DNA of 64,000 nt from Trypanosoma brucei (Eukaryota), in the NCBI GenBank assembly GCA_000002445.1, contig AL929603.2, forward strand, positions 1,000,673-1,064,672, written 5' to 3'. Made by a program: the position numbers and the translations under genes. The notes beneath the pieces are model-generated. The model saw nothing but the letters and a program-made list of their open reading frames with translations, searched no databases and was not told the DNA's origin. Below, piece by piece: positions 26,574 through 64,000 of the stretch. How positions within the stretch are numbered: position 1 is the first letter of the stretch; every line of letters starts with the position of its first letter.

Positions 26574-27935
26574 ATGTGGAAGTTTAAGGTGTTGGTGGCG
26601 GCTGCGGTAGTTATTATAGCAGCACAAATTAATTCAGTGAAAATAGTTAACCAAGAGGAGTTTGAAATACTGTGTGGTTTTGTGCGTTTAACACTTGCAC
26701 CAGCACCACTAATACAATTGTCTCAGAGGATAAAAAATGAAGCTGTGGGTGCGGCGGTGGATGCAATTTATTCTGAGCCCAATCAGGAACATCTGTGGAA
26801 AAAGCTATCACCAAATTGTGAAGCGCACCAAATAAGTGACAGGGAAAGCGTGTGCGATGCCTATGCAAGGTTCAAACATGAGGCGGAAGAGCGATTGAAA
26901 ACGTCTAGACTCACAGAACCAGAACTGACGGACTATTCACCTGATGTTCTCGATCATCTAGAGAAAGCGTTCAAACTCTATCAAGCGAGTGAGCTTGAGG
27001 GTAAACAAACTAGTATCGTAACTTTGCAAGAGGGGATAAACTCAATTATGTATGGAGAGAATGACAGTGGTGGCAATTCCCTGTGGGGAGACCACTTTCG
27101 CAACGAAGATTGCGGAACTGTGCTGGGGCAACGTCCAAAATATGCTGGTGGCGCGCTAGTTACGGACCTTTTGTGCTTATGTGCGCAGCACGTGAATGGA
27201 AGTGACACCAAGCATCTGTGTTGCGAAGGCTGCAGCTGGAGAAGTAATACTACTGTGTGGAGCGAGGAAGGCGGTCTTAAACTACAGTGGGAGATACTCA
27301 GGGAGAAATGTATCGGGTACAACATGGATCTCGCAAATCCAAAAGACAGACTGAAGAGACTACGTGAAGAAATGGAGTGCAGAACCGTGCCAAGAGGCAT
27401 CGGTAGCCGTAAAGGATTGTTTGTTTACACATATGGTGAGCTGGAAAAGCGGGAACTGGTCTCTTGCGGCGGGGAAGACCGACAGGATTCTGGAGCGTGT
27501 GTCCTCTATGAATGGGGAGGAACCCAAATCCAAACCGCAAGAATACCTTGGATGCAGCGACTCGAGAAACTTGTCGACATGTTGCCAAATGTTTCGGAGG
27601 AATCAGACAGAATGGAAAAAAGAAGGAGACAAATAGAGAACATCGTGTATCGAGTAAACGAAACTTCAAAAAAACAGCCCAAATTAGAGAAGAAAGAGGC
27701 GTTATCACAACAAGATACACCACACCCACCTCTCGGAGATGTACTCCAAACATTTACTGACAACCCCAACACTGAGGGCGAAGCTAGGGAAAAGCAACAA
27801 GTAAAGAATGATTCTTCAGACAAATCTGTTGAGATTAAGCCCGCTGAGGGGCGAACCCCAGGAATCGGTATCCGTCCACTAAAAAGTGCGAGTAAAATTG
27901 GTACACCCCTGACGATGTTTTTATTGTTATTATGA
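26574..27935 (+). CDS. Surface glycoprotein, 453 aa, with a VSG-N-terminal-like start. It is a paralog of 12593..13630.
   Basis: Has a signal peptide and the motif EFEILCGFVRLT (compare EFQTLCGFVRLT at 12593). It has conserved LVTDLLCLC / LVCLCEG cysteine clusters, a Lys/Glu-rich spacer, and a C-terminal hydrophobic tail (TPLTMFLLLL). Confidence 0.65.
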   Translation: MWKFKVLVAAAVVIIAAQINSVKIVNQEEFEILCGFVRLTLAPAPLIQLSQRIKNEAVGAAVDAIYSEPNQEHLWKKLSPNCEAHQISDRESVCDAYARFKHEAEERLKTSRLTEPELTDYSPDVLDHLEKAFKLYQASELEGKQTSIVTLQEGINSIMYGENDSGGNSLWGDHFRNEDCGTVLGQRPKYAGGALVTDLLCLCAQHVNGSDTKHLCCEGCSWRSNTTVWSEEGGLKLQWEILREKCIGYNMDLANPKDRLKRLREEMECRTVPRGIGSRKGLFVYTYGELEKRELVSCGGEDRQDSGACVLYEWGGTQIQTARIPWMQRLEKLVDMLPNVSEESDRMEKRRRQIENIVYRVNETSKKQPKLEKKEALSQQDTPHPPLGDVLQTFTDNPNTEGEAREKQQVKNDSSDKSVEIKPAEGRTPGIGIRPLKSASKIGTPLTMFLLLL

Positions 27936-31472: not shown

Positions 31473-32444
31473 ATGAAGGTTGCCGTTTTTCAATGGTTAA
31501 TTTGGGCATTTTTAATGGCTTGTGCTTGCGGCAAGGATGACTATACGTTGGTGACTGATCATGAAGGTGACGCGCCTTTAAACGAGTCCGTATGTTATCT
31601 CAGTTGTCTTTCAGATGCATTAAACAACTTATACAGCGATAGTGAGAAGAGGCTGTTTGTGAATGAGGAAGTATACGCAAATGCATCTCGTATATTGGAT
31701 GATATGGAAGGAAAATCAGGTGAAAGCACAAAGTATTTGAGTGTTATTAGTAGTGTAATTTCAAAGCAAAATGATAAATTGGAAAAACTTATATCTTATG
31801 GAAATGAAATGGGGGACCTTGTAGCTAATGTGGGTGGATTATTTTCTGAGGTTAATGAGAGTGTGAGGGCAGTGAGGGAAGTATTGCCAAGTGCTCTCAT
31901 AAGAGCGAATAAATATTATACGGCTATTGCTGAGATTGTTAGGACAGTGTGGGATGATGTTAACAGGCCTTTGAAACAAGATGAGGCTAAATGCGGAAAT
32001 CAAAACTTTGGAAGCGTTGGGGAACCGAAAAACGAGTGTGTTTACCGCACGTGTCCACTGGGAGACGGTGTGAGTGAAGACACTCTTCAGCACTATAAGA
32101 AAGGTGGTATTGAAATAAACGTTCAAACAGGTTCCGTAAGCGAATGCTTTAATAGACCAAGGGACAACTTATATAGGAACGGTGCAGAAAAGCATTCGAG
32201 TGATGTGCTAAAATGGCTTGAGGGTGAAACCACCCGTTTACAACTTACGGTTGAAGTGCAAAAAATATTTGGTCCCCTCATCGTACCTTTTGCTGCTGGA
32301 CAATCGCCTTCTGCACTTCGTGCGATGATGTCCAATATCACTTTCCTCTATTCCCACTTTAAGGAGGTCCACAGCAATTTTACTTTAATGTTACACGACA
32401 CCAACATTACTGATAATTTGAATAGTACTCATTCCACCATTTGA
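31473..32444 (+). CDS. Secreted glycoprotein, member 2 of the ~325-aa paralog family.
   Basis: A 323-aa ORF, about 65-70% identical to the 20200 and 39136 proteins over its full length, as judged by eye. Same 5' start context (ataatgaaggt) and homologous 3' flank. Confidence 0.7.
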   Translation: MKVAVFQWLIWAFLMACACGKDDYTLVTDHEGDAPLNESVCYLSCLSDALNNLYSDSEKRLFVNEEVYANASRILDDMEGKSGESTKYLSVISSVISKQNDKLEKLISYGNEMGDLVANVGGLFSEVNESVRAVREVLPSALIRANKYYTAIAEIVRTVWDDVNRPLKQDEAKCGNQNFGSVGEPKNECVYRTCPLGDGVSEDTLQHYKKGGIEINVQTGSVSECFNRPRDNLYRNGAEKHSSDVLKWLEGETTRLQLTVEVQKIFGPLIVPFAAGQSPSALRAMMSNITFLYSHFKEVHSNFTLMLHDTNITDNLNSTHSTI

Positions 32445-39135: not shown

Positions 39136-40122
39136 ATGAAGGTTGTTATTGTAGAGTTAGTGATTTCATTATTGCTTGTAGTTTACGTTTGTGGGGCGGA
39201 AGAAGACGGTACTTGCAGGTTGGTGGCAGATTCTGGGGGACACTCACACTTAAATGAGTCCGTTTGCTATCTCAGTTGCCTTTCGAGTGCGTTGAATAAA
39301 TTATACACTGATGGTGAGAGGAAAATGCTTGTGAATGAGGAAGTATATGCAAATGCGTCTCGTATACTGGATGATATGGAAGGTAAAACAGGTGAAAGCA
39401 CAGAGTATTTGAGTGTTATCAGCGGTGTAATGGAAAGTGAACATGATAAATTGGAAAAGCTTATAACTTATGGAAATGAAATGGGAGATTTTGTAGCTAA
39501 GGCAGGTGGATTATTTGCTGAGGTTAATGAGAGTGTGAGGGAAGTGAGGAAAGTATTACCCAGTGCCCTCATGGAAGCAAATAAATACTATGCAGCCATT
39601 GCTGAGATTACAAGAACTCTTTGGGATGATGCTAAGGCGGTGAAGAGCGACGATGAGGAAGTCTTACAGTGTAGAAACGGGAAAATTATAAGTACAGGGG
39701 AGTTTGCAGTCAAGTGTAGCGCCCATACGTGTCCACTAGAAGCCAATGTGACAGAGAGTAACCTCAAAATGTACAAGGATGGCTGTCTCGAAATAAATGT
39801 AATGGGTGGTTCTGTTAGCAAATGCTTCAATTTACCAAGGAATAACTTGTATATAAGCGGTGCAAGAATTAATTCGAGTGGTGTGTTGGAATGGTTTGAA
39901 AACGGTGCCTCCTTTTTTCGACTTATAGTCAAGGTTCAGGACATCTTCGCACCCCTTATCGCACCTTTTGCAGCCGGGAAACCGCCCTCTGTACTTCTTA
40001 CAAAGATGACAAATATCACTTCCCTTTACTCTCAATTTAACAAAGTTCACAACAACTTTACTTCGCTGCTGCTCGAAAACAATATCACTGGGAATGTGAA
40101 TAAAACAAGATCAAGCTTCTAA
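39136..40122 (+). CDS. Secreted glycoprotein, member 3 of the ~325-aa paralog family.
   Basis: A 328-aa ORF with the conserved LNESVCYLSCLSSALNKLYTDGERKMLVNEEVYANASRILDDMEGKTGES block. Its 3' flank is homologous to the 3' flanks of 21184 and 32445. Confidence 0.7.
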   Translation: MKVVIVELVISLLLVVYVCGAEEDGTCRLVADSGGHSHLNESVCYLSCLSSALNKLYTDGERKMLVNEEVYANASRILDDMEGKTGESTEYLSVISGVMESEHDKLEKLITYGNEMGDFVAKAGGLFAEVNESVREVRKVLPSALMEANKYYAAIAEITRTLWDDAKAVKSDDEEVLQCRNGKIISTGEFAVKCSAHTCPLEANVTESNLKMYKDGCLEINVMGGSVSKCFNLPRNNLYISGARINSSGVLEWFENGASFFRLIVKVQDIFAPLIAPFAAGKPPSVLLTKMTNITSLYSQFNKVHNNFTSLLLENNITGNVNKTRSSF

Positions 40123-41473: not shown

Positions 41474-43957
41474 ATGCTGGCCACATCAAGGTGGTGCCAG
41501 GGTCCAGTACCCCGTATCATCGGGGGAAGCCAAGAGCCAGCAGCGTTCCTTTCATGGGGAACAATGCTTTGCTTCGGCTACGGCATCATACAGCACAGGG
41601 ATCAGCAGCGTCTTGCTGGGACACCGTTTTTCATTTGTTGGTCCCTGGGCACGTGCCAGCGTGCCATCAGCAGTATCATCCGCACTAAGATGCTGCTGTC
41701 CGGTGATGTGGAAGAGAATCCCAGCCCGTCGTTGCGCGGGATGCAGTGGAACTGCGCCGGGCTATCTCAAGGAAAGAGATTAGCACTCCACAAAACCCTT
41801 GTTGATGAGCGGATCGCCTTTTGTCTGTTGAGCGAGACAAGGATGACGCCTGGAGAGGCGGCTTGCTTTAGCGTTGCTGGCTGCCAACATCACGGAAAAG
41901 CTCGTAACTGCAAAGGAGGTGGTGTATCAATACTAGTGAGGGAGGACCTACCAATCGAGACAGGTATGGCTGTTGTTGGTCGCATTGAACAAGTGCATGC
42001 AACAATTCACCTTGCACGTGAAACGGCACTGACCGTCACGTCGGCATACATCCCACCAAAACACACCTTCACGGCAACTGACCTAGATACGCTTCTTACG
42101 ACTGACGGTGCCCAGCTCATCGGTGCAGACGCTAACGCACACGCGTTGGCATGGGATCGCGCGAGCCCACCAAATACCAAGGGTGAAACCCTCACACAGT
42201 GGTGCATTGACAACCAGTTTCTGGTCTGCAACACTGGTGAGTGCACCAGGTACGCGCGCCACCACGGGGAGTCCACCCCTGATGTGACACTGTCAAGGAA
42301 TTGCACAGTGTACACGTGGACATCGCTGTATTCTCCCGATAGCGATCACCATCACATATTTTTCGACGTTATCGTTGGAGACGACACAGATGCACTGAGT
42401 TGCCCGCAGCTTCGAAAGCCCATGTACGCATGGCTAAAAGCTAACTGGAGGAATTTCCGTCTCAAGGTTGACGAGCTCTGCAGGAAAATTGGCAGAGAGA
42501 AGAACGTCAACACCCTGGAACAGAAATTGAGCTCCGCCATCCGCACTGCGACGAAGGTCTCCGTCCCCCGTGGCTGCAGAGCAACGCCACCACATTGGAC
42601 ACCTGCGCTCGCGAAACTCGATGAAGAGATCGCTGGATGCGGACCCTCCTACCGAAGGGAAAAGTTGGTAGCCACGCGTAAGCAGATCCTGGACCGTACC
42701 ACAAAGAAGAGATGGAGCACGCTATGCTCCAGACTTGCGGTGTCAGACCGCTGCAGTTGGCACATTGTCAAGAAGGTATATGCGCCACGACCACTAACCA
42801 CACTGACGGTACTGGTTGATAACGTGGCCATCACAGACTACCGTCAAGCTGAGAGGTTCAGTAAACTGTACTTGTCCCGCGCAAGAAGGCACCCCGACTC
42901 ACACCCACCGGCACCAATAAAGACGATAGCGAGTGAGTTCAGTCCCATCACGATGGCTGAACTACGGAGATCGATCAAACTGCTTCCGAGTGGATCCGCA
43001 GCCGGACCTGATTGCTTACACAACGAGGCACTGCAACATCTCGGTAGAACAGCGCTGAATGTTGTTCTGAGGCTATTCAATGAGAGCCTACGAGCGGGAG
43101 TCGTGCCGCCTGCATGGAAGACTGGTGTTATCATCCCCATCCTGAAGGCCGGAAAAAAGGCGGAGGACCTCGAATCTTACAGGCCTGTGACGCTCACGAG
43201 CTGTCTCTGCAAAGTCATGGAACGCATAATTGCCGCGAGGCTTAGAGACACTGTTGAGTCCCAGCTGACGCCGCAGCAATCAGGCTTTCGCCCCGGATGC
43301 TCAACGCTCGAACAACTGCTGCACGTCCGCGCTGCCCTCTGCCGTCCCACGCACCAATATCGTACGGGTGCTGTATTCGTTGACTACGAGAAGGCATTCG
43401 ATACAGTAGACCACGACAAAATTGCGAGGGAAATGCACATAATGAAGGTATCACCCCACATTGTGAAGTGGTGCGTATCATTTCTGAGTAACCGAACTGG
43501 CAGAGTGAGATTCAAGGAGAAGCTTTCCAGAAGCAGAACATTTGAGCGAGGAGTGCCACAAGGAACTGTCCTTGGCCCAATCATGTTCATTATTGTCATG
43601 AACTCGTTGAGCCAACGCCTTGCAGAAGTGCCGTTACTGCAGCACGGATTCTTTGCAGACGACCTGACGCTACTTGCGAGACACACAGAGAGGGATGTCA
43701 TCAACCACACACTACAATGCGGTCTAAACGTGGTGTTACAGTGGTCAAAAGAGTACTTCATGTCTGTCAACGTAGCGAAAACGAAGTGCACACTCTTCGG
43801 GTGTACAGAGCGCCACTTCCTTACATTGCAACTGGACGGCGAAAGAATAGGAGCTGACAGGACACCGAAGCTTCTAGGAGTAACATTCCAGTGTCTGCAA
43901 GGGATGGGAACACATGCGGCCGAAACGAGATGCAAGATGGACTTCAGACTACTGTAG
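41474..43957 (+). pseudogene. ingi ORF fragment: endonuclease plus reverse-transcriptase domains, 827 aa, terminated by an in-frame stop.
   Basis: RT palm motifs include YRPVTLTSCLCKVMERI, VFVDYEKAFDTV and GFFADDLTL. The next ORF at 44042 is in the same frame. Confidence 0.75.
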
Positions 43958-44041
43958 ATAGCAGCCATCTCAGCTTCTACATGGGGGCCAAGACGATAAG
44001 TACTGAGAGCTTTTTATCTAGCACTCGTACAGGCACACACC

Positions 44042-46450
44042 ATGTATGGCATTGAGGTATGGTACTGGGACGCTTCGGAACGAAGTCGCGACCTCCTTGC
44101 ATCAGCACAACACAAAGCCAGTTGCATCATAGCTGGCATACCACATGGGACGCGCAAAGAGGACTCTCTGCTGGAAGCAAACATCCTGCCACTCAAGACG
44201 GCCACTCTTGTGCGCAGCATGAAATTCGTGCTGATGTGTGAGTCACGAGGCGGATGTTTGCGGCGCAGTGCTGAAGAAGTATACCACAGCAAACACCCAG
44301 TCAGAGCCCTACATTCCCGCATCATGCGGTCCTATCCCCACCTCCGCATTGAGCCACGCGAGAACCCACTAGAGACATCGACGCTCCGCCACAGCTGCCG
44401 ACCGCTATTTCACACGCAGATAAAGCCTGTGTGCGCTGGTGACCCTGACGATGTCAAAAGGGAGGCTTCCGAAAAGTGGATTGAACGGCATTTTGCACGG
44501 AGGGGGAAGGAGCCACCGCGGCGAGAGCACTACGAATTGTGGACTGATGGATCCGTGTCCCTCGGTGAGAAGTCCGGAGAAGCTGCCCTTCTCTATAGAA
44601 ACAACACGCTGATTTGCGCACCCAAAACTGGAGCAGGGGAACTCTCATGCAGTTACAGAGCGGAATGCGTAGCATTAGAGATAGGACTGCAACGGCTGCT
44701 GAAATGGCTTCCGGCATACAGAAGCACACCGAGCAGGTTGTCCATCTTCTCTGACTCGCTGTCAATGTTAACAGCACTGCAGACAGGCCCCCTAGCCGTA
44801 ACGGACCCAATTCTGAGACGACTATGGAGGCTTCTGCTTCAAGTTCAGAGAAGGAAGTTGCGTATCCGACTGCCATTTGTGTTTGGCCATTGTGGCGTGA
44901 AACGGAATGACGTTTGCGATGACATGGCGAAAAAGGCCACTGATTTACCACAGTTGCGAGACACATTGATCCCCGACATCATTGCTTATGCGAAGCGAGT
45001 GATTAGGTCGGAAGAAGTCCATGAGAACACTCATAGGTTTGGTATCACGGGAAACCACTTTCCAACAAAACATAAAGAAGAACTGACGAGGGAAGAAGAA
45101 ACGGCACTGGCACGCTTTCGAGTTGGGTCTTCAAGACACTATGGATGGATGTTGCGAAAGATCAACCCGAGTGTGCCTCCACAGTGCCGATGGTGCAACC
45201 CGCAACATGCAGAGATAGGGCCAACAATACAAACGGCCCCAACTGTTGCGACACACACTCTTCAGAGAACCTCCGAACCAACTAAATGTACGGAATGTGA
45301 TGCCACATACCAATGCCGCTCGAGTGCTGTAATGCATATGGTAAACAAACATGGCTTTGTGCGAGCTGATGCCCTCCGGAGGATCAAATACGGCGATGCA
45401 ACACCCGCAGTGGACATCCCCCCGGAGCCCCCTCCAGTGGTGGCGATCGTTCCTCTACCATCGAGCACACGAGTCCCAATGAGACCGCAGGTGCTTCATT
45501 GTACCCTTCTGTGCCTCCAAATTCGCAGTGCCAGGCCGACTATTACACCACCTTAGAACAATACATGGCATAGGCAGCGGTAGTTGCCGCGTGAAAAGGG
45601 GGCGAGAGAACGAAGACTCATTGCAAGGAGATGGTAGAGCCCCAGCAGCGCCAGCCTCTCAGGATACACGGAAGCTGCCGTTTCAATGTGACCTGTGCGA
45701 GGCGAGCTTCGGTACACGTTCTTCCCTGTCACTACACAAGAAATTCAAACATAAAAGCATAGTGACGGAGGACGGTAACTTTGTGGCGGTGGTGCAATTC
45801 CCTCGTAAGCGTGCCCGTGAGGGAAACGTTGACGTCCCGGGGAAAGGCGAGGTGCAGTGTGGTGTGTGCCAAAAAGTGCTCAGTTGCAGGGACTCCCTCA
45901 TCCGACACTGCAAGGCTTTCTATAAAGGTGAGGAAGTCGAACTTAAATACAGCAAGAGCACAAAATTGTGTGCCACTGATTCCCCGCATACAAACGCATC
46001 CATGTTGGTTTGCCCGACATGCGGGAGGCGTGTGCTAGCAAAACTGGCCTCACCCTACATCAAAAGAAGATGCACGGTATGAAGGTAGAGCGCGCTGTTA
46101 CCAGCCAACGCGGCGACTGCGAAGAAACGTCGCTGCACTTGATGAGCTGTCCCGGTTTGAAGGAGTTACGTGTCAGGTTTGCGGTAGAAGGCGTGTGTGT
46201 GCAGGATGTATGTTTCTCTAAAAGGCTGGCGCAGTTTCTCATTGCGGTTGAACGGAGCCGGCCGCAGGTGAAGTCCTCACCTAAGGTAACAGTCATACAA
46301 CCCACTCTCCCTTCTGCAACTTCCCCCCTTATTGCCGAGTGTGGAGCTAGCAGGAAAAGCACCGGACGCAGGAATAGTCCAGACACCCTTAGAGACAGAG
46401 GGGGTATGCAATCAACAAGCAACAGAAACAGAAAGAGGGAGAGAGAATAA
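44042..46450 (+). pseudogene. ingi ORF fragments: RNase H and C2H2 zinc-finger region, split by two frameshifts.
   Basis: RNase H D/E/D signature residues are present. Three CxxC...HxxxH fingers are present. The frame changes at about 45528 and about 46010. Confidence 0.7.
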
Positions 46451-49496: not shown

Positions 49497-50912
49497 TTAA
49501 AAGTCACACGCTAGAATAAAAAACGCAAGCCAAAGAGGAGCCTTTTTAATGACAAAAGAATTGCTTCCTGTGGTGTTTGTGGTTCCGGTTTTCTCTTTGT
49601 TTTCATCCTCTCCCTTCTTTTTTGGTGTGCAAACTCCCTCTACCATAACGCAAATCCTTGTGCAGTCGGTTCCATTTTTGTCACTGCATTCCTTATTTTG
49701 TTCTTCTTCAGCATTTTTGTTTTTAGTTTCTTTTTCCTCCTCACTTTTTAATTCTTTTAGCAGTAGTCTTGCTACGGAGTCGCCAAGTTGTCTCATAGTT
49801 GTGACGCTGTTTAGTGCTGTATTTTGTTCCTTGCCATCGCCGGTTACGGGGACTTTAATATCGTCGACTAGTTGCCACACGTTAGTGGCGAGCTTTTCGC
49901 CTGTTTGACCATATGCATCCTTTGTGGCGGCTTGGGCCTGCTGATCTCCTGTATCTATCGATTCTTTGTCGTACAGCCGCAATAGCGCCTTTGTTGCTAG
50001 TTTGCCGAATACTTGTGTTCCGGACAATGCTGAGTACTCCCTTAGATCTTTTGAGCATGACTGGTTTTGTAGCAGCTGTTTTGCGGCTGTGAAGTTGGCG
50101 TTTACTTTCTTTAGTAGGTCGCCTGTTATTTTTAGTGGCGTGACCTCGAGATTGATGCCGTTCTCTAGGCTCGTCCCAAGTCTGCTGGCTGCTGTCCCTT
50201 GATTTTGTGCTGGCCCGCCTGTGAGCTCTAGTTCGACGAAGCCATTTTCTGCTATCTGCGTGCTGTGGCAGCTGGCTGCGCCGTTGTGCGTGCATTTGTA
50301 GACGACTTTTAAGGCGTATGCTTGCTCCGGCAGCGCCGGCTGTTTCGCTTCGGTTGCTTTATCTATTTGCAGTAGGTCTTCACTGTCAGTCAAGCTTGGA
50401 CACGGCTTGTCGTCTCGTGCCGCGAGTGCCGACGGCGTCGGGAGCTGTGCGAACGGTGTGCCGCCCGTTGCTGTTACTTTGAACCGTCTTGACGTCGCCG
50501 TCATCGCATCCATAATCTTCCACGAGCGGGTCAGCTGATTTACGCCTTCCGTTAGGTCTTTCGTTTGTTTCTGTAGCTTGTCGGGAAGGTCTGCACATTC
50601 TTCAAGGATTTCCCCGCCGGCCGCTATTACAGGCACAAGCTTGCGTTTTAGGTTGGCGTCACCTACTGTTGCCGCCACAATAAGTTTGTTGTAGTTTTCG
50701 TGGTTGCTTCGCTGTTGGCTGGCTGCCGATGCGTACGTAATTTCATACAGATTTAAGCGTTTGTGAGTGCGAGCGATGCACGCGCACAGGTTTGCGCATG
50801 CCGCGTCGTCCGCCGGCTTTTCCGTTTGCGCGCGCCGTGATGTACTTAGGACCATTATCCCTATTAATACCTGTTGCGGCAATGTCATGGTTTTGTCTAG
50901 TGCTGTTTCCAA
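49497..50912 (-). CDS. VSG: Variant surface glycoprotein (VSG), full length, 471 aa.
   Basis: Has a signal peptide and a helical N-terminal domain with early Cys (ACANLCACIARTH). The C-terminal domain has the VSG cysteine pattern CSDKNGTDCTRICVMVEGVCTPKKKG. The GPI signal is NTTGSNSFVIKKAPLWLAFFILACDF. A 16-mer-like element lies in the 3'UTR just downstream. Confidence 0.9.
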   Translation of the reverse strand: METALDKTMTLPQQVLIGIMVLSTSRRAQTEKPADDAACANLCACIARTHKRLNLYEITYASAASQQRSNHENYNKLIVAATVGDANLKRKLVPVIAAGGEILEECADLPDKLQKQTKDLTEGVNQLTRSWKIMDAMTATSRRFKVTATGGTPFAQLPTPSALAARDDKPCPSLTDSEDLLQIDKATEAKQPALPEQAYALKVVYKCTHNGAASCHSTQIAENGFVELELTGGPAQNQGTAASRLGTSLENGINLEVTPLKITGDLLKKVNANFTAAKQLLQNQSCSKDLREYSALSGTQVFGKLATKALLRLYDKESIDTGDQQAQAATKDAYGQTGEKLATNVWQLVDDIKVPVTGDGKEQNTALNSVTTMRQLGDSVARLLLKELKSEEEKETKNKNAEEEQNKECSDKNGTDCTRICVMVEGVCTPKKKGEDENKEKTGTTNTTGSNSFVIKKAPLWLAFFILACDF

Positions 50913-52554: not shown

Positions 52555-52655
52555 TGCTACCACAACTCTTATCATATATTCGTATATATACACACTCACA
52601 ACACACTCCTCTATCATTATTATTATAACCATAGCTAATTTCAATAAAACAAACA
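52555..52655 (-). repeat. Single 70-bp repeat unit in minus orientation, upstream of the VSG at 50912.
   Basis: tatatacacactcacaacacactcctctatcattattattataacc is the reverse-complement form of the 70-bp core. It lies about 1.65 kb 5' of the VSG start, the usual co-transposed-region spacing. Confidence 0.55.
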
Positions 52656-55569: not shown

Positions 55570-57183
55570 CTAAAAGTCTTTACAATTCTGAAATGCTTCC
55601 AAACTAAAAAATGCAGCAGCTATCAGAGCCAATTTATTATTTACAATAAAGCTACAAAGGCTGTGCTTTTCTTTTTCTGGCTCATCTTCACTTTCTTTTC
55701 CCTTTCTGAATGCGCAATTTTGTTTATCCCCCGTTTTGTCATTTTCACAAGCTGTCTCGTCAGTGCCGTGTTTTGCACACCAAGCTGAAGCTGCTCTCTC
55801 TTTCTTTTGATCTCCTGCAGTTCCTGTTCCTGTTCCTGCTGCTGCATTTGTTTGTCCTTCTCCATCTTTAGGTTTGCAGGGACCATCTGTTTCAGTTTTT
55901 CCTTGCCATTTGCAGTTAGCCTCTGTGCATGCAGTTTTATTGCTTTTTTGTTGTTTGCATCCTTCTTTATCTTCTTTGGTCTTTGAGCTTAAGCTCTTTG
56001 TCTCGACGGTTGTGGGGGGTTCTGTTAGCGCTGTCGCACAAGCATACGCTGCTTCTCGTTCTGCTTTTAGTTGGTGGTTTATATTTTTTATCGCCGCGGC
56101 CGCCGCTTCCCGTAGCTGTAGGTCTTGGGCGAGGTTTACAAGTTTCACTACCCATGGGATGTCCGTGAACTTTTTGTCGCCCTTCCCCGTGAAATCGCTG
56201 TATTTGACGCATACCCCCGCGTCTGAGCTTCCGTCGCAGTTGCTTTTGGTTACTGTTTTGCCGAGGAAACCGGCGTTGTTAAGTTTGACTACCATGCTGT
56301 TCAGTTCTCTTATCGGAGTTAGGAGCGCATCGGCACTGATCACCGCTCCGTCGTCGTCTGGGCATTCGCCGGCTAGCTGTGTCCACACTCCTAAGGCCGG
56401 GGGTGCCGCCGTTGTCCAGGTCGTTGTTACAGTTTGGCCAGATATGCAGGCTCCGCCCGGTTGGTTTGCGGCTGCTTCGGCGCATACGCACATTAGCGTC
56501 GCGGCTGCTGTCGTTGCTGGGTGGTTGGCGATGTTTCCACCGCAGGCATTCGAGCGTCCGCTGTTGGCGCCTCCTGAGAAAGTTTTTGCTATTGTGACAC
56601 TTGCTTTATTACCGACGTCATCCCCCAACACCGCGTCTTTAAGCTTCTTGGGGTAATCAGCTGCTGTTGGTTTTGCTGCTGCTGCTGAGTATTGTTTTCC
56701 TTCTGTTAATAGGGCCTGCGCCCGTGCTAAGTGTGCTTGGACTCTCATTTGTGCTGCCCATCTTCTTCCGGGCGTAAGGTTGTTGAAGCCTGCTTCTTTT
56801 ATTCTTGTAGCCGCTGCTGTGTCCGGCCGCGTGGCTTTGTAAGCTAGAACCCATTGTCGCCATTTGTTGTGCCAGTCCTTAGCGATATTGTCGTCCGTTA
56901 CGTTAGCCTTTGTTTTCATCTCCTCTAGGGTGTCTGTGACTTCGGCTTTTGCAAATTTTGCTTGCCATGTTGCTGGGCTTAGACTGATGTTTAGTTCTTC
57001 CATTTCTGTGACAGCTGCCGTGTTTAGCGTCGCGTGCGGTCCTAGCGCTGGTGATTTTTCCGCAAGGGCCACAAGCTTGCACAGTTGTCGGAACACTGCT
57101 CCGTTGTCGGCCGGTCCGACGTCGCTAGTGGCTTGTTTGGCTGAGAGGAAAAGTGCCAGGAAAAGAAATACCGGCAGTAGCAT
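55570..57183 (-). CDS. VSG: VSG, 537 aa, with an aberrant C-terminal extension. It may be a nonfunctional or archive copy.
   Basis: Has a signal peptide MLLPVFLFLALFLSA, an N-terminal VSG domain with an early Cys (FRQLCKLVALAEK), and a C-terminal domain cysteine pattern (CKPKDGEG...CAKHGTDETACENDKTGDKQNCAF). Its GPI-signal-like end is SLCSFIVNNKLALIAAAFFSL, but it continues EAFQNCKDF past the expected stop. Confidence 0.85.
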   Translation of the reverse strand: MLLPVFLFLALFLSAKQATSDVGPADNGAVFRQLCKLVALAEKSPALGPHATLNTAAVTEMEELNISLSPATWQAKFAKAEVTDTLEEMKTKANVTDDNIAKDWHNKWRQWVLAYKATRPDTAAATRIKEAGFNNLTPGRRWAAQMRVQAHLARAQALLTEGKQYSAAAAKPTAADYPKKLKDAVLGDDVGNKASVTIAKTFSGGANSGRSNACGGNIANHPATTAAATLMCVCAEAAANQPGGACISGQTVTTTWTTAAPPALGVWTQLAGECPDDDGAVISADALLTPIRELNSMVVKLNNAGFLGKTVTKSNCDGSSDAGVCVKYSDFTGKGDKKFTDIPWVVKLVNLAQDLQLREAAAAAIKNINHQLKAEREAAYACATALTEPPTTVETKSLSSKTKEDKEGCKQQKSNKTACTEANCKWQGKTETDGPCKPKDGEGQTNAAAGTGTGTAGDQKKERAASAWCAKHGTDETACENDKTGDKQNCAFRKGKESEDEPEKEKHSLCSFIVNNKLALIAAAFFSLEAFQNCKDF

Positions 57184-57599
57184 TGGCTGCTGTGTAACTT
57201 ACTTTGTCGGCGTATGTGACTCTGTGTTGGCTGCAGTTGCTGGCCCCTGCCCTTGGATTCCGCCTATGTATATTTTTTTACTCGTGAATTACTTGGTATG
57301 TTCTTTTCGTTTGCGTCTAATCTTCAGCGTGGAATTATTTTGTGTGTAACTAGTGATAGTTGTGTGGTATTTGACGGTATTTGCAGACTGTGCTCGTGCA
57401 TGTACATTATTCTTTGGTTTTGCTTGGACTTTTGCTGTTTTTACTCAGATTAGTAGACTTTCATAAGGTATTTTTTTAGTTGTAAGCATGGCATCGATGT
57501 GTGTCGCTGTTGCCTGCTTCTTCTTTTTGAGTCTTGTACTTGCCAGTGCGTATGCTTTCTCACTTTATATTTATTGGAATTTGTTAGTTGACGTTGTCA

Positions 57600-58653
57600 A
57601 AACCATTTTGCGACTGCTGATTGGCATCGCAACTTCTTCGCTACAAATAATTCCCTTTCTTTTAACGTATCACCACATATTTTCTGATCTTCAAAATCTC
57701 ACCAACCCCCATCCACCGCATAGCTTTGAATTTCACCAAAATCCTTCGCACTAAGCTGCTTCTTTTCCAATTCTCTATCCAAAATATGATTCTTCACAAT
57801 CAATTTCGCTTTTTCCTCCCACGCAATAGGCTGTGCCGGAAAGTGAACAGATACCACCTATCCAACTTCACCATTATTTGGAATAGAAAAGCCTCTTCTC
57901 ATAATCCAATGCAATCATTCCTCTCTACAAAACAAATCACTGTCCAACAGCTTCTTCCTGAGTGGCACTCCATATTAACAACGGTTTGTAAATACTCTGC
58001 TCTGACCACCACTCCTCACTTCCCTTTAGTAACTCTCCAAAAGCATATTCAAATTTTATTAAATGCCCAAACTCTTGCGATTATATTTCCACCTCCAAGG
58101 TAAGGGTTTCCACTAGGAGGTGATTTCAGTAAATGCGGTAATTTTTTATCTTATTCTTTTCTGTAACCGACATTAAAGAGCCAATAGCATCTTACTCTAT
58201 GGTCTTTGTAATCTGAGCTCATAAGTAAATCAAACTGAGGAGCATAACACTCTGATGTTATCATGAGTAGAGTATTTCACAGCATTTTCATACTTTTCTC
58301 CATCACTGACAATAACGTCAGAACCCATCAAAATGAATTACAATATCCTCATCGCTTGCATTCTGTTTCCCTAAAATTCCATAACCTATCTACGCCTCTT
58401 AGCATGACTATACAAACCTCCCATTGAAATTGTAATAATTTCAATATGGCTTAGTTTCGCACTCAATATTTTTCTATATTATCCTTGAGTTGTATGAATA
58501 TGAACAACAACCACAAATACTTATGTTTCTTAGCGTCATTCTCTACTACATTTGTTATAATTGCCTTTATGTGTTATTGAATTTTTTAAAGCTTTAATAT
58601 ACTACATGTAACAGTAACAGTAATAGTAAAGTTCTCAAAATAAGAAATCTCAT
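57600..58653 (-). pseudogene. ESAG3-like or glycosyltransferase-like pseudogene, copy 2. It is a diverged duplicate of 47331..48375.
   Basis: The nucleotide sequence 57.7-58.6 kb aligns with 47.4-48.35 kb, for example atcctcatcgcttgcattctgtttccc with atcctcatcacttgtattctgtttctcc. No long ORF remains. Confidence 0.5.
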
Positions 58654-59408
58654 GACGTAATCTTCCTTTAAAATTTAAGCGCGTTATAAGAAAAGTATTA
58701 GAAGCCTTAATAAAGAAAAAACGTCGCGAGACTCACTGTTAAGTTAAGGAAACAGCATTTTCATATATGAGTATTTACTTTATATTGTTATGTTGTTTCT
58801 GTTGAGTGTATTTTCAGCGTATGAACCTTGTCTTTCATTAGTTACCCACAGTGTTTTCTATGTCAGCTTTAGTTACACCTAGTTCTGTAAACTACGTGAA
58901 TTTCACTATTTGTTTCATTTACATTTCTTTTCTATGTATTTCTGTTGTTATTTAAGATGGTATTTACACTATTCCCTTTGTATATGCTAAAATGCTTACC
59001 CTTTTACTTTGATAAGTGCTTCGACCATTCGCTTTTGTCACAATATTAATATCACTATAGCTCTATAAGTTACTTCTAACATTGTAGCTACTCCATTTAC
59101 AGAATAACACTCATTTATTCTGCATCAACTACGTGGTGTCATTGGTTTATTTTTTTATTTGGCGCTACGCTTCACTGTGCGATACTCTGTCGTTTCACTC
59201 TGGATTTTCTTTTTTGTTTTCTGTTATATTATCGCTCTCTCAGCGAAAAAGGTAGTACCTCCATTTGTCCAGTACACTAGACTCTGTCTCTTCCTACTAT
59301 ATTGTTCAATTAAAAACCTCCTTTTTATCAACAATGATATTGATCGTCATGTTTAAGTTTGAAACTGTGCATATTTTAATCCTTTCTCATTTTCACACTT
59401 TATTTCTC

Positions 59409-59641
<233 letters not shown>

Positions 59642-59699
59642 AAATATAATAATAATATTAATATTATAAATAATAAAATGATCATAATGATGGTAATAC

Positions 59700-60527
59700 A
59701 ATAACTAGCAGAGTGTGTCGTGAGTGTGCATATACGAATATACTATACGAGCAGTAATGATAATGATAATGATAATGATAGGAGAGTGTTGTGAGTGTGT
59801 ATATACGAATATTATGATGAGAGCAGTAATAATAATAATGATGATGATGATAATTATAATAGGAGAGTGTTGTGAGTGTGTGTATACGAATATTATAATA
59901 AGAACAGTAATAAATATGATGATGATAATAATAACAGGAGAGTGTTGTGAGAGTGTGTATATACGAATATTATGATGAGAGCAGTAATAATAATAATGAT
60001 GATGATGATAATTATAATAGGAGAGTGTTGTGAGTGTGTATATACGAATATTATAATAAGAACAGTAATAAATATGATGATGATAATAATAACAGGAGAG
60101 TGTTGTGAGAGTGTGTATATACGAATATTATAATAAGAGCAGTAATAATGATGATGATGATAATGATAATAATAGGAAAGTGTGGTGAGTGTGTAGATAC
60201 GAATATTATAATAACACCAGTAATAGTAATAATAATAATAGGAATGTGTTGTGAGTGTGTGCATATACGAATATTGTAATGAGAGCAGTAATAATGATAA
60301 TAATAATAGGAGAGTGTTGCGAGTGTGTGTATACGAATATTATAATAACACCAGTAATAGTAATAATAATAATAATGATAATAGGAGAGTGTTGTGAGTG
60401 TGTGTATACGAATATTATAATAAGAACAGTAATAATAGTAATGATAATGATAGGAGAGTGTTGTGAGTGTGTATACACGAATATTATAATAAGAGCAGTA
60501 ATAAATATGATGATGATAATTATAATA
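59700..60527 (+). repeat. Tandem array of about 11 T. brucei-type 70-bp repeats (70-84 bp units) in + orientation, toward the telomere. The assembly gap truncates it.
   Basis: The repeated unit is (TAA/TGA)n ATAGGAGAGTGTTGTGAGTGTGTATATACGAATATTATAATAAGAGCAGTAATAA, with variants ggaaagtgtggtgag and ggaatgtgttgtgag. Confidence 0.9.
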
Positions 60528-60627
60528 NNNNNNNNNNNNNNNNNNNNNNNNNNNNNNNNNNNNNNNNNNNNNNNNNNNNNNNNNNNNNNNNNNNNNNNNN
60601 NNNNNNNNNNNNNNNNNNNNNNNNNNN
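60528..60627. other. Assembly gap: a run of 100 N.
   Basis: Direct read. Confidence 1.
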
Positions 60628-60690
60628 AGGATTAGGATTAGGATTAGGCTTAGGATTAGGATTAGGATTTTGGTTACTCGGTTAGGGTTA
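60628..60690 (+). repeat. Variant telomere-like hexamers, (TTAGGA)~6 with one TTAGGC, degrading into ..ggttactcggttagggttaa.
   Basis: Direct read: aggattaggattaggattaggcttaggattaggattaggattttggttactcggttagggttaa. Confidence 0.85.
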
Positions 60691-60899
60691 ATTTTTTCCT
60701 CTTTTTTTTAAGTCATTTTTTAGTCATTTAGTGATGCAAGGGCTCTTTTCTTATATTTTGCGGCGGCGCTGGCAATGCGGTTTTTAAGTCTTTTTTTATT
60801 AACGACAGGTTGCTGATTTCTTAATTCACTTTCTTAATTCATTTTTTTTAATTTTCGGTTTGTCGCGGGTTTGTGGTTATTTATTTTAAATTTTCTTTA

Positions 60900-63436
60900 A
60901 CCATGCAGCGGCTGTTTTATTATGCGAACCCTAACCCTCCTCGCCCCCCGCGCCCGCACGCCCTCCGCGGGGACTCCAGTCTTTATTCACGATTTATTAT
61001 TTTTTTTTAGCGCAAGCACCTCCACTTTTTTTGTCGCCCTGACACTTAATTTTCATTTTTCATTTCGAATTTTTTTCACTTGTTTATTTAAATTGTTAAT
61101 TTTTCTTTAACCATGCACCAGCTGTTTTATTATGCGAACCCTAACCCTCCTCCCCCAACGCACGCACCCCGCGCCACACCTCCAGTTTTTTTAATTTTTA
61201 ACATCGGTTTTCGCGTTTAGTTCTTTTTAAATCTTGTCTTTTTTGTTTTGAATTTGAATTTTAATTTTTTTGTATTTTAATTTTCCGAAGTTTTGATTTT
61301 AATTTTTTTACAACCACAACTGCGAACTTTTTTTTGTCTTCTTGGTTTTTCGAATTTTTTTTTGACACCGCCTTTTTTTTGTTTTCAATCTTTTTAGTTT
61401 TTTTTCAGTTATTTTCTTTAATCCTTTTTTTTATTTTTCGAATTGTTTTTCGGTTTTTTGCGCGGTTTGTGGTTAGTTTTTTTAATTAGTGATGCAGCTG
61501 CAATTTTATTATGCGGACCCTAACCCTCCTCCCCCCCCGCCCCACGCGCCCCCCGCGCACGCAGCTCCAGTTTTTTTTCATGATTTATTATTTTTTTTAG
61601 CCATTCACGGCTCATTTTTTTTTCGCTCTGACGTTCAATTTTTTTTTTGTTTTTTTTAATTTTTTAAAAAAGTGATGCCGCGGCTCGATTTTACATTTAT
61701 TTTTTTGTATTTTAATTTTTTCGAATTTTTCGGTTTGAATTTTTTTTCTTTAGCCGTGCAGCGGCTGTTTTATTATGCGAACCCTAACCCTCCTCTCCCC
61801 CCCGCCCCACGCGCCCCCCGCGCACGCAGCTCCAGTTTTTTTTTTAGAATTGTTTTTTCGTGATTCTTTTTTAGATATTTCCAATTTTGCAATGCACGAA
61901 TTTTTTTTTAGCGCGGCTTTCCACGGCACTTTTTTTAACCCTTTTTTTCACTCTTCATTTTTGTATTTCGTTTTTTTTCTATTTTCCGAGTTTTTGAATT
62001 TTTTTTAGGGCTAGGTTTTTTTAAAGGTTTTTAGATTTTTTCTTTAATCCCTTTTTTGTTTTCTTTCTTTTGCGCGGTTTTTTTTGCGTTCATTTTTGGC
62101 CTTTTTTCGAATTTTTTTGTTTTTATTTTTGACCCCCGCCGAAACTTTTCGTTTAATTTTTTATTTTTTAAAATTTTTAAAAATTTTTTGTTTTAGCGCT
62201 CAATTTTTTTTTACGACCATTTTTGTTCGAAGCACACAAAGCGGTGTTTCGGGTTAGCGGGTTCGGGTTAGGGTTAATTTTTTTCATTCCAGTTTTTTTA
62301 TTCCGCAACTCTGTCCTGCGTTGTTCTGATTTTTTATTAATACTGCGGCGGCAGTTTTATCTTGCGGTGGCGTTTAATTTATTTTTTTGTGTGTTATTTA
62401 AATTTTTTTTTAAATGATGCAGCTGCAATTTTATTATGCGGACCCTAACCCTCCTCCCCCGCCCCCCGCCCGCGACCCACGAGAAGCTTTTTTTAAATTT
62501 TTAATTTTAATCCTTTTTTTTGTATTTTGATTTTTTCGAATTTTTCGGTTTGGTTTTTTTTTGCACCACTTTTCAATTTTTTAATTTTTTTAAAAGTGAT
62601 GCAGCGGCTCTTTTATTATGCGGAGCCTAACCCTCCTCCCCCCCGCACGCGCCCCCCGCAAACGCACCTCTTTTTTTTTAAATTTTTTTTAGCGCGTCCT
62701 TCAACCACAATTTTTAACCTTTTTTTTATTTTCCGACTTTTTAAATTTTATTTTTTTTGTTTTTTGAGTTTTTCGAATTTTTCAGTTTGTGGTTAGTTTT
62801 TTTAATTAGTGATGCAGCTGCAATTTTATTATGCGGACCCTAACCCTCCTCCCCCCCCGCACACGCACCCCCCGCGCAACCACCTCCAGTTTTTTAAATT
62901 TTAAATTGTTTTTTTTGTTTTGAATTTGAATTTTTTAATTTTTTAAAATTTTTTTTTAATTCAATTTTTAAATTTTTAATGACGATGCAGCGGCTATTTT
63001 GTTATGCAAACCCTAACCCTCCTCCCCCCCCCGCGCACGCCCTCGCACGCGCACCTGTTTTTTTTAAATTTTTTGGTTTTTTTTTCGCGGTTTGATTTTT
63101 TTTTTGTATTCTTGACTTTTTCGAATTTTTTTGACCTCAATGTTTTTAGATTTTCAGATTTTTCGAATTTTCTATTTTTAAACTTTCCGTTTTTTTTGGT
63201 TTTAATATTTAAATTTTTGATTCTTTTTTTTTATTTTTGCGAGATTTTAATTTTTTTTATATTTTTGAGTTTTTGTTTTTTTTTAACGAGCGCCAGCAGT
63301 TTATTTATATGTTTTTTTTTATTTTTGATCCCCGCCGAATCGTTTCGTTCAATTTTTTATTTTTTATTTTTTTAAATATTTTAAAATTTTTTGTTTTAGC
63401 GCTCAACTTTTTTTTTTTGCGGCCATTTTTGTTCAA
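60900..63436 (+). repeat. T-rich subtelomeric higher-order repeat with eight copies of a ~60-bp core carrying an inverted telomere hexamer pair.
   Basis: The core is GTGATGCAGC(G/T)GCnnTTTTATTATGCG(G/A)ACCCTAACCCTCCTCCCCCC..CGCxCACGCAxCTCCAGTTTTTT. Copies lie near 60905, 61115, 61490, 61755, 62415, 62600, 62810 and 62990. An interstitial seed ..gggttagcgggttcgggttagggttaa sits at 62248-62290. The segment 62130-62290 is duplicated at 63320-63480. Confidence 0.85.
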
Positions 63437-64000
63437 AACGGAACCCGCTGTGTGACGGGTTCGGGTGTTTCGGGTTAGCGGGTTCGGGTTCGGGTGTTTC
63501 GGGTTAGCGGGTTCGGGTTAGGGTTAGGGTTAGGGTTAGGGTTAGGGTTAGGGTTAGGGTTAGGGTTAGGGTTAGGGTTAGGGTTAGGGTTAGGGTTAGG
63601 GTTAGGGTTAGGGTTAGGGTTAGGGTTAGGGTTAGGGTTAGGGTTAGGGTTAGGGTTAGGGTTAGGGTTAGGGTTAGGGTTAGGGTTAGGGTTAGGGTTA
63701 GGGTTAGGGTTAGGGTTAGGGTTAGGGTTAGGGTTAGGGTTAGGGTTAGGGTTAGGGTTAGGGTTAGGGTTAGGGTTAGGGTTAGGGTTAGGGTTAGGGT
63801 TAGGGTTAGGGTTAGGGTTAGGGTTAGGGTTAGGGTTAGGGTTAGGGTTAGGGTTAGGGTTAGGGTTAGGGTTAGGGTTAGGGTTAGGGTTAGGGTTAGG
63901 GTTAGGGTTAGGGTTAGGGTTAGGGTTAGGGTTAGGGTTAGGGTTAGGGTTAGGGTTAGGGTTAGGGTTAGGGTTAGGGTTAGGGTTAGGGTTAGGGTTA
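63437..64000 (+). repeat. Telomere: a degenerate transition (gggttc / gggtgtttc / gggttagc) into about 85 perfect GGGTTA (= TTAGGG) hexamers running off the window end.
   Basis: Direct read. The G-rich strand runs 5' to 3' toward the window end, as expected for a right chromosome terminus. Confidence 0.97.

What the first reader, a model, noticed from the sequence alone, without database searches (positions are those of the whole stretch)
60628..60665. TTAGGA/TTAGGC variant telomeric hexamers in an interstitial position
Six hexamers differ from the canonical TTAGGG at the last G (TTAGGA x5, TTAGGC x1). They degrade into ttttggttactcggttagggttaa. Variant repeats like these are typical of error-prone de novo telomere addition or of ancient decayed telomere tracts. 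They are unusual directly downstream of 70-bp repeats.
Basis: seen in the sequence. Interest (0 to 1): 0.55.

Follow-up and report, generated by a model that had tools for sequence, protein, structure and literature searches.

The report
Variant telomere-like tract at gap edge
A 40-base run of TTAGGA/TTAGGC repeats near the right end of Trypanosoma brucei chromosome 1 is most likely a decayed, internal telomere-like remnant at the boundary of a duplicated sub-telomere block, an ordinary kind of feature, and because it touches an assembly gap it still needs checking against raw reads.

Summary
The hexamers are there: AGGA + TTAGGA x2 + TTAGGC + TTAGGA x3 at 60628-60667. That is far more than chance (5 matches to TTAGGATTAGGA against 0.24 expected).

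The window is the right end of T. brucei TREU927 chromosome 1. The tract is the first sequence after a 100-N scaffold gap (60528-60627). Its position "directly downstream of 70-bp repeats" is therefore a scaffolding statement, not a physical one.

To the right, the tract runs into a degenerate copy of the telomere-derived 29-bp repeat, then a canonical TTAGGGTTA, then the junction TTAGGGTTA|ATTTTTT. The same junction recurs at 62268-62283. There a 34-nt telomere-like tract, identical to the terminal one, separates two homologous blocks of about 1.2-1.6 kb. Each block holds four GC-rich units in T-rich DNA. The true (TTAGGG)n array starts 2.85 kb further out.

Best reading (about 0.6): a relic telomere-derived tract at a boundary between stacked terminal modules, with one variant repeat spread by slippage. 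Random base-call error is excluded by the pattern, but a systematic artefact at the contig edge is not. No independent T. brucei sequence could be reached with these tools.

De novo telomere addition is not supported. Interest is low.

The parts
59409..59688 (+). (TAA)n tract of about 93 units that leads into the 70-bp repeat array
   Evidence: TRF period 3, 93.7 copies; sequence
59687..60527 (+). About 11 copies of the T. brucei 70-bp (75-81 nt) repeat in '+' orientation, facing the telomere. The left contig ends inside this array.
   Evidence: TRF period 75, 11.2 copies. Core motifs occur 10-11 times on the + strand. Single copies on the - strand lie upstream of - strand VSGs, which sets the sense orientation.
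60528..60627 (.). 100-N scaffold gap of unknown true size
   Evidence: The only N run in the window
60628..60667 (+). The finding: AGGA (TTAGGA)2 TTAGGC (TTAGGA)3, variant telomere hexamers that form the first bases of the right-hand contig
60668..60691 (+). TTTTGG TTACTCGG TTAGGG TTA: a degenerate copy of part of the 29-bp telomere-derived repeat, ending in one canonical repeat
   Evidence: Aligns to TTTCGGG TTAGCGGG (TTCGGG) TTAGGG TTA of 62246-62276 and 63496-63526
60680..60699 (+). Junction motif GGTTAGGGTTAATTTTTTCC (boundary J1), shared with 62266-62285
   Evidence: Local alignment score 38, against shuffles of 20.9 +/- 2.9 with maximum 30; alignment A1
60692..62242 (+). Sub-telomeric module 1. 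T-rich DNA (49% T) with a truncated first unit at about 60719-60790 and four GC-rich units (60876-60984, 61086-61184, 61465-61571, 61729-61835). Each GC-rich unit carries an inverted CCCTAACCCT. The module ends in a pre-telomere block at 62111-62242.
   Evidence: Repeat families D1, D2, D16, D18, D20; alignment A2; GC-rich cores
62243..62276 (+). Second internal telomere-like tract (J2), GGTGTTTCGGGTTAGCGGGTTCGGGTTAGGGTTA. It is 100% identical to the terminal 63493-63526 and is followed by ATTTTTTTC.
   Evidence: Family D17; blastn 100% over 34 nt
62277..63455 (+). Sub-telomeric module 2. It has a truncated first unit at about 62340-62375, four GC-rich units (62390-62486, 62572-62668, 62785-62887, 62958-63058) and a pre-telomere block at 63307-63455. 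It is colinear with module 1.
   Evidence: blastn 61058-62271 vs 62373-63478: 63.7% identity over 1265 columns, E 1e-99; families D16, D18, D20
63456..63524 (+). 29-bp telomere-derived repeats (CGGGTTCGGGTGTTTCGGGTTAGCGGGTT), 2.4 copies
   Evidence: TRF period 29, 97% matches
63509..64000 (+). Terminal canonical (TTAGGG)n array with the G-strand 5'->3' towards the end; 82 units to the window end
   Evidence: TRF period 6, 82 copies, 99% matches

Best explanation
The tract is a real, non-functional relic. It is a short interstitial telomere-derived tract that marks the distal end of an older sub-telomeric module (now inside the gap) on the right arm of T. brucei TREU927 chromosome 1.

This chromosome end is built from tandemly stacked terminal modules. 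Each module is T-rich DNA with four roughly 75-nt GC-rich units and a pre-telomere block, and each ends in a telomere-like tract followed by the same junction, TTAGGGTTA|ATTTTTT. The stacking is inferred to have arisen by unequal exchange or break-induced replication between telomere-like tracts. This resembles the tandem yeast Y' elements, which are separated by short TG1-3 tracts.

Once internal, the tract was no longer renewed by telomerase. It accumulated substitutions, and one variant unit (G6 to A) was spread over neighbouring units by replication slippage or unequal exchange, with TTAGGC as a further change at the same position.

Shown: the sequence, its statistical excess, its orientation, the shared junction and the module homology. 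Inferred: the duplication mechanism, the homogenisation, and the lack of function. A G-to-A change in the GGG core would be expected to weaken TTAGGG-specific Myb (TbTRF) binding; that expectation comes from general knowledge and was not tested.
For: 1. The hexamers are present and non-random.
2. The tract has the same strand and orientation as the terminal array 2.85 kb away.
3. The tract's tail, TTTTGG TTACTCGG TTAGGG TTA, aligns with the 29-bp-repeat-derived tract at 62243-62276 and at the terminus.
4. An 18-nt junction, GGTTAGGGTTAATTTTTT, is shared with the second internal junction. The local alignment scores 38 against shuffles of 20.9 +/- 2.9.
5. Both junctions are followed by a truncated GC unit that lacks the CCCTAACCCTCCTC core, and then by four full units.
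6. The two modules are colinear (E 1e-99). The block before J2 (62111-62276) matches the block before the real telomere (63307-63526) at 73-100% (D16, D17, D18, D20). J2 is therefore demonstrably a copy of a chromosome terminus that is now internal, which sets a precedent within the same window.
7. All six changes hit hexamer position 6, while the other 34 tract positions are canonical. This excludes random low-quality miscalls. The chance that 6 independent errors share one position is about (1/6)^5, or 1e-4.
8. Blocks of variant repeats formed by mutation plus local homogenisation are documented next to canonical arrays in other organisms (PMC11406999). TTAGGA is a catalogued human telomere variant (PMC6007693).
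Against: The tract is the first 40 nt of a contig at a scaffold gap. That is the place where assembly or base-calling problems concentrate, and no read data or independent assembly could be reached.

The proximal side of the tract, which should show the pre-telomere block if the module model is right, lies in the gap.

The other telomere-derived repeats at this end are TTCGGG-type (position 3). The tract is TTAGGA-type (position 6), so it is not a simple copy of them.

The shared junction is short and partly low-complexity. Module identity of about 64% in T-rich DNA is inflated by base composition.
Confidence: 0.6

Rival explanations
1. Assembly or base-calling artefact. The true sequence at the contig edge is canonical or otherwise different telomere-like repeat. 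The third G of each unit was miscalled systematically, or the contig end was extended or 'corrected' wrongly in repetitive DNA.
For: The tract touches the 100-N gap. Both variants (A and C) fall at the same hexamer position, as an ambiguous peak in a fixed sequence context would. Both contig ends at this gap lie inside tandem repeats, where assemblies break. A published comment notes that trypanosome assemblies are least reliable near the sub-telomeres (PMC4858185).
Against: Random error is excluded by the strict periodicity: 6 of 6 changes at position 6 and 34 of 34 other positions canonical. Thirteen bases further on, the sequence matches a paralogous junction perfectly for 18 nt, so quality would have to recover abruptly. 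The left contig edge shows no sign of degradation. Even if every A or C were really G, the region would still be an interstitial telomere tract at a module boundary, so only the 'variant' part of the finding would fall.
Confidence: 0.2
2. Scar of chromosome healing. A break in or just beyond the fragile 70-bp repeats was capped by imprecise de novo telomere addition. Distal sub-telomeric modules were acquired later by recombination.
For: The scaffold places the tract after a 70-bp repeat array that faces the telomere with no assembled VSG behind it. The tract is oriented like a telomere.
Against: The defining junction between non-telomeric DNA and the repeats is not in the sequence, because it lies in the gap. 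Telomerase copies a fixed template, so a homogeneous run of a non-template unit is not the expected product (general knowledge). The distal end of the tract shares its 29-bp-like tail and junction with another internal tract, which indicates inheritance by duplication rather than a new addition.
Confidence: 0.08
3. Tip of a much longer (TTAGGA)n array hidden in the gap. This would be a distinct satellite or variant-telomere block with a role of its own, for example a protein-binding or boundary element, or a seed for telomere repair.
For: The contig starts in mid-unit, so the array is truncated by the assembly and not by biology. Assemblies typically break inside long perfect tandem arrays.
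Against: There is no other TTAGGA tandem in the 64-kb window. No paper among those searched pairs TTAGGA with trypanosome telomeres. Nothing here bears on function.
Confidence: 0.12

Closest known systems
T. brucei telomere-adjacent repeats: GGGTTA array, 29-bp telomere-derived repeat, and about 74-bp G+C-rich repeats separated by about 155 bp of A+T-rich DNA (Blackburn & Challoner 1984; Van der Ploeg et al. 1984; Weiden et al. 1991). Recalled from memory; these papers are not held in the library.
   Same: The DNA to the right of the tract has exactly this layout. There are 8 GC-rich units (cores of 52-84 nt, 65-75% GC) spaced mostly 173-264 bp apart in T-rich DNA, then 29-bp repeats, then (TTAGGG)n. 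The tract's tail is a degenerate piece of the 29-bp repeat.
   Different: The tract itself has period 6, not 29. It carries a position-6 change (TTAGGA or TTAGGC), whereas the known derived repeats carry TTCGGG or TTAGCGGG. It lies 2.85 kb internal to the 29-bp repeats. Stacking of two or more modules, each ending in a telomere-like tract, is not part of the description as I recall it.
Short internal TG1-3 tracts between tandem Y' elements, and between X and Y', in Saccharomyces cerevisiae sub-telomeres (general knowledge)
   Same: Tandem sub-telomeric modules are separated by short telomere-repeat tracts in the same orientation as the terminal array. The likely origin is recombination between telomere-like tracts.
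   Different: The modules here are 1.2-1.6 kb, non-coding, T-rich repeats rather than 5-7 kb helicase-encoding elements. The repeat is a homogenised variant. Only two complete modules are seen.
Proximal telomere variant repeats and sub-telomeric interstitial (TTAGGG)n islands in humans and plants
   Same: These are blocks of single-substitution variants of the telomere unit, internal to the canonical array, and are explained by mutation without telomerase renewal plus slippage or unequal exchange (PMC11406999). TTAGGA is among the listed human variants (PMC6007693).
   Different: In those systems the variant blocks are usually contiguous with the canonical array. Here 2.85 kb of non-telomeric repeats lies between them.
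De novo telomere addition (chromosome healing)
   Same: Telomere-type repeats in telomere orientation at an internal site near a known fragile element, the 70-bp repeats.
   Different: The healing junction is not observable. The repeats are non-canonical and homogeneous. The position is not terminal. The distal end is shared with a paralogous tract.

Membership tests
Interstitial telomeric sequence (sub-telomeric type) | Tandem units derived from the species' own telomere repeat (at most 1 change per unit) | tested here: met
   Six full units each differ from TTAGGG at one base. The terminal array of the same window is TTAGGG.
Interstitial telomeric sequence (sub-telomeric type) | Non-terminal position, separated from the terminal array by non-telomeric DNA | tested here: met
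   About 2.85 kb of GC-unit and T-rich repeats lies between 60691 and 63456/63509
Interstitial telomeric sequence (sub-telomeric type) | Head-to-tail orientation with the terminal array (relic or stacked telomere, not a fusion) | tested here: met
   The G-rich strand is on + in both
Interstitial telomeric sequence (sub-telomeric type) | Presence in the organism's DNA confirmed independently of this assembly | not testable with these tools
   No T. brucei reads or other assemblies could be reached
T. brucei 29-bp telomere-derived repeat | 29-bp period built from TTCGGG / TGTTTCGGG / TTAGCGGG pieces | tested here: not met
   The tract has period 6 and holds only TTAGGA and TTAGGC. Only the 24-nt tail at 60668-60691 aligns, imperfectly, to part of the 29-bp unit.
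T. brucei telomere-adjacent repeat organisation (Weiden-type, for the flanking DNA) | GC-rich repeats of about 74 bp separated by AT-rich spacers, then 29-bp repeats, then GGGTTA | tested here: met
   Eight GC-rich units, spacing 173-661 bp (median about 213); 29-bp repeats at 63456-63524; (TTAGGG)82+. The family definition is recalled from memory.
T. brucei telomere-adjacent repeat organisation (Weiden-type, for the flanking DNA) | 'Bent' character of the AT-rich spacers (helically phased A/T tracts) | tested here: inconclusive
   T-tract spacing peaks at 8-9, 16, 25 and 32-33 nt rather than about 10.5. Bending itself was not measured.
De novo telomere addition site | Direct junction of unique non-telomeric DNA to telomerase-made repeats | not testable with these tools
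   The proximal side of the tract is the 100-N gap
De novo telomere addition site | Added repeats match the telomerase template (canonical TTAGGG) | tested here: not met
   None of the six full units in the tract is canonical
Sequencing or assembly artefact | Located at a contig edge or gap | tested here: met
   The tract starts at the first base after the N run
Sequencing or assembly artefact | Errors scattered as expected of low-quality sequence | tested here: not met
   All changes are at hexamer position 6 and the other 34 positions are canonical. There is a perfect 18-nt match to a paralogous junction 13 nt downstream.
Sequencing or assembly artefact | Not supported by raw reads | not testable with these tools
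   No read data are available

The most novel reading that the evidence does not exclude
The 40 nt are the visible tip of a longer natural (TTAGGA)n block hidden in the gap. On this reading the block is a fossil chromosome end made of non-canonical repeats, possibly lying behind an unassembled telomeric VSG that the telomere-facing 70-bp array predicts. It was later capped by Y'-like, recombination-driven stacking of terminal modules. That would show that trypanosome chromosome ends can grow by module amplification and can tolerate blocks of variant telomere repeats.
Probability: 0.12. Interest if true: 0.45.

Novelty: new member of a known kind. Interest (0 to 1): 0.2.

Why it matters
It matters little on its own. 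Telomere-derived repeats inside T. brucei sub-telomeres have been known since the 1980s, and variant-repeat blocks are common in eukaryotes.

The modest value lies in three points.

1. This chromosome end carries at least two, and probably three, stacked terminal modules, each ending in a telomere-like tract. That records past recombination at a telomere in an organism whose antigenic variation depends on telomere-proximal recombination.
2. A 70-bp repeat array faces the telomere with no VSG assembled behind it. The reference gap may therefore hide a telomeric VSG.
3. The tract is a useful unique k-mer for closing that gap with long reads.

Tried and rejected
**Attempts to reach independent copies of the locus**
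- Exact-protein look-ups failed for VSG 55570-57183, VSG 26574-27935, ORF 63004-63375 and the identical database protein P0001.
- A homology search with ORF 60922-61107, which lies just distal to the tract, found no candidate.
- Collection scans for the GC-unit core, the 70-bp repeat and the tract itself returned nothing. These collections evidently hold no T. brucei DNA.

**Literature**
- No paper among those searched pairs TTAGGA with trypanosome telomeres. The hits are primers or unrelated work.
- Hall et al. 2003 (the chromosome I paper), Wickstead et al. 2004 and Weiden et al. 1991 are not held. What I say about them is from memory.

**Other negative results**
- An Rfam scan of 57000-64000 found nothing.
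- I considered the tract as a variant of the purine-rich part of the 70-bp repeat (TAATAGGAGAG) and rejected it. There is no alignment beyond AGGA, and the tract continues into telomere-derived sequence.
- I considered insect TTAGG or nematode TTAGGC contamination and rejected it. The tract is contiguous with T. brucei-type 29-bp-like sequence and with a junction that is paralogous within the same contig.
- I tested helical phasing of T-tracts as a proxy for 'bent' DNA. The spacing is about 8 nt, not 10.5.

Full report
**Where the window comes from**

The window carries an ESAG8-like LRR gene, three ESAG1 copies, VSG-domain genes and pseudogenes, and an ingi-type retroelement (RT/endonuclease/RNase H at 41474-46082). 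It also carries two VSG genes on the minus strand, at 49497-50912 and 55570-57183.

The 537-aa VSG at 55570-57183 is 100% identical to an NCBI protein named 'variant surface glycoprotein (VSG, atypical), putative [Trypanosoma brucei brucei TREU927]', which lies on a 1,064,672-bp contig. That size matches TREU927 chromosome 1 as I recall it.

The window ends in at least 82 perfect TTAGGG units with the G-strand running 5'->3' towards the end. It is therefore the right end of that chromosome. As I recall the chromosome I paper (Hall et al. 2003, not held), this end was described as about 50 kb of VSG and ESAG genes and pseudogenes whose telomere-proximal VSG points away from the telomere. That matches what I see.

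**The observation**

The only N run in the window is 60528-60627, 100 bases long. The next bases read AGGA TTAGGA TTAGGA TTAGGC TTAGGA TTAGGA TTAGGA (60628-60667). They are followed by TTTTGG TTACTC GG TTAGGG TTAA TTTTTT.

- Tandem Repeats Finder gives period 6, 7.0 copies and 94% matches.
- TTAGGATTAGGA with up to one mismatch occurs five times, all here, against 0.24 expected.
The end coordinate should be 60667.
- The tract is interstitial. The 29-bp repeats begin at 63456 and the canonical array at 63509/63518.

The tract is the first sequence of the contig to the right of a scaffold gap of unknown size. The left contig ends inside the 70-bp repeats, and the right contig begins in the middle of a hexamer. 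Two things follow. 'Directly downstream of 70-bp repeats' is not a physical statement, and the tract may be longer than 40 nt.

**Surroundings to the right**

Positions 60692-63455 are 49% T on the + strand.

- They contain eight copies of a GC-rich unit with consensus GATGCAGCGGCTnTTTTATTATGCGrACCCTAACCCTCCTCCCCCCC...CGCGCACGCAnCTCCAG.
- The unit cores are 52-84 nt at 65-75% GC, spaced 173-661 bp apart.
- Each unit holds an inverted 1.6-unit telomere motif, CCCTAACCCT.
- Then come 2.4 copies of a 29-bp repeat, CGGGTTCGGGTGTTTCGGGTTAGCGGGTT, and then the telomere.

This is the telomere-adjacent organisation that I recall from Weiden et al. 1991 for T. brucei minichromosomes: GGGTTA, a 29-bp telomere-derived repeat, and about 74-bp G+C-rich repeats separated by about 155 bp of A+T-rich DNA. 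That paper is not in the library, so the comparison rests on memory.

**A second internal telomere-like tract and a module structure**

Positions 62243-62276 read GGTGTTTCGGGTTAGCGGGTTCGGGTTAGGGTTA. This is 100% identical to the terminal 63493-63526.

The about 130 bp before it (62111-62242) are homologous to the block before the real telomere (63307-63455), at 73-92% identity (D16, D18, D20). So 62243-62276 is a copy of a chromosome terminus that now lies 1.25 kb inside.

More broadly, 61058-62271 aligns colinearly with 62373-63478 (63.7% over 1265 columns, E 1e-99). The terminal 2.9 kb is therefore two tandem modules. Each has a truncated first unit lacking the CCCTAACCCTCCTC core, then four full GC units, then a pre-telomere block, then a telomere-like tract.

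**How the TTAGGA tract fits**

The tract occupies the same place relative to module 1 that 62243-62276 occupies relative to module 2.

- The 18 bases GGTTAGGGTTAATTTTTT at 60680-60697 are identical to 62266-62283. The local alignment extends to 35 columns and scores 38, against 20.9 +/- 2.9 (maximum 30) for shuffles.
- The tail TTTTGG TTACTCGG TTAGGG TTA aligns with TTTCGGG TTAGCGGG (TTCGGG) TTAGGG TTA of the 29-bp-derived tract.

The simplest reading is that the tract is the telomere-like end of a third, more internal module whose body lies in the gap. It is also more decayed than the second junction, as expected for an older and more internal copy.

The variant type is distinct. The other telomere-derived repeats at this end are TTCGGG (position 3), whereas the tract is TTAGGA/TTAGGC (position 6). 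A run of one variant is best explained by one mutation that spread through slippage or unequal exchange. This is the explanation given for variant-repeat blocks next to plant telomeres (PMC11406999). TTAGGA is also one of the catalogued human telomere variants (PMC6007693).

**Artefact or real?**

Random low-quality errors are excluded. All six changes fall on hexamer position 6, while the other 34 positions are canonical, and 13 nt further on the sequence matches a paralogue perfectly.

A systematic, context-dependent miscall, or a faulty extension of the contig end, cannot be excluded without reads. That both A and C occur at the same position is compatible with an ambiguous call.

I could not reach any independent T. 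brucei sequence:
- Exact-protein look-ups failed.
- A homology search with an ORF next to the tract found nothing.
- The DNA collections contain no T. brucei repeats.

Even if every A or C were really a G, the region would remain an interstitial telomere tract at a module boundary. Only the 'variant' part of the finding depends on base accuracy.

**De novo telomere addition**

The junction that would define a healing event lies in the gap. The units are not the template product. The distal part of the tract is shared with a paralogous junction. I therefore rate this reading low.

**The 70-bp repeats**

Single 70-bp repeat copies on the minus strand lie upstream of minus-strand VSGs. One example is 52590-52606, upstream of the VSG at 49497-50912. 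The sense orientation is therefore GAGTGTTGTGAGTGTGT on the VSG coding strand.

The 11-copy array at 59687-60527, preceded by (TAA)93, is on the plus strand. It faces the telomere and not the minus-strand VSG at 55570-57183.

In T. brucei, 70-bp repeats precede a VSG that lies a short distance upstream of the telomere (PMC4858185), within 2 kb in expression sites (PMC10813129). The gap may therefore hide a telomeric VSG as well as further sub-telomeric modules. This is an inference.

**Function**

Nothing suggests a function. Rfam finds nothing in 57000-64000. By analogy with TTAGGG-specific Myb proteins, a change in the GGG core should weaken TbTRF binding; this was not tested. The tract might serve as a seed for telomere repair after distal loss, but that is speculation.

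**Verdict**

The feature is an ordinary kind of sub-telomeric sequence, in a known T. brucei repeat context, at an assembly gap. The TTAGGA variant itself did not appear in the trypanosome literature I could search. Interest is low (0.2). Its main use is as a marker for closing the reference gap.

Noticed in passing
window 59409-60527 versus 55570-57183: The (TAA)93 tract plus the 11-copy 70-bp repeat array lies on the + strand and faces the telomere. The nearest VSG (55570-57183) is on the - strand and has no 70-bp repeat of its own between 57184 and 59400. The 100-N gap may therefore hide a telomeric VSG.
   Followed up: partly
window 62243-62276 and 62111-62242 versus 63307-63526: A 34-nt telomere-like tract identical to the terminal one, together with its upstream block, is duplicated 1.25 kb inside the chromosome end. 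The terminal 2.9 kb is two tandem modules with four GC-rich units each.
   Followed up: yes
window 60930, 61140, 61519, 61783, 62444, 62626, 62839, 63012: Every GC-rich sub-telomeric unit contains CCTAACCCTCCTC. This is a 1.6-unit telomere repeat in the inverted (C-strand) orientation, followed by a C-rich run. The units themselves look telomere-derived.
   Followed up: partly
window 61465-61540 and 62785-62860: Two GC-rich units in different modules are 100% identical over 76 nt, although the modules are otherwise about 64-70% identical. This suggests recent gene conversion between units.
   Followed up: no
window 60692-63455: The + strand is 49% T. The centres of T-tracts of 4 or more bases are spaced with peaks at 8-9, 16, 25 and 32-33 nt, a period of about 8 nt rather than the helical 10.5.
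   Followed up: partly
window 59700-60527: The 70-bp repeats show a higher-order period of about 158 bp (5.5 copies, 83% matches). Two alternating subtypes form dimers.
   Followed up: no
window 62005-62016: An isolated telomere-like remnant, TTAGGGCTAGGT, sits inside module 1 and away from any module boundary.
   Followed up: no
window 20200-21183, 31473-32444, 39136-40122, 41474-46082: Three ESAG1 copies (Pfam E about 1e-116 each) and an ingi-type retroelement (endonuclease/RT, RNase H, zinc finger) lie in a degenerate expression-site-like region. All are on the + strand, and the strand switches to - for the two distal VSGs.
   Followed up: no
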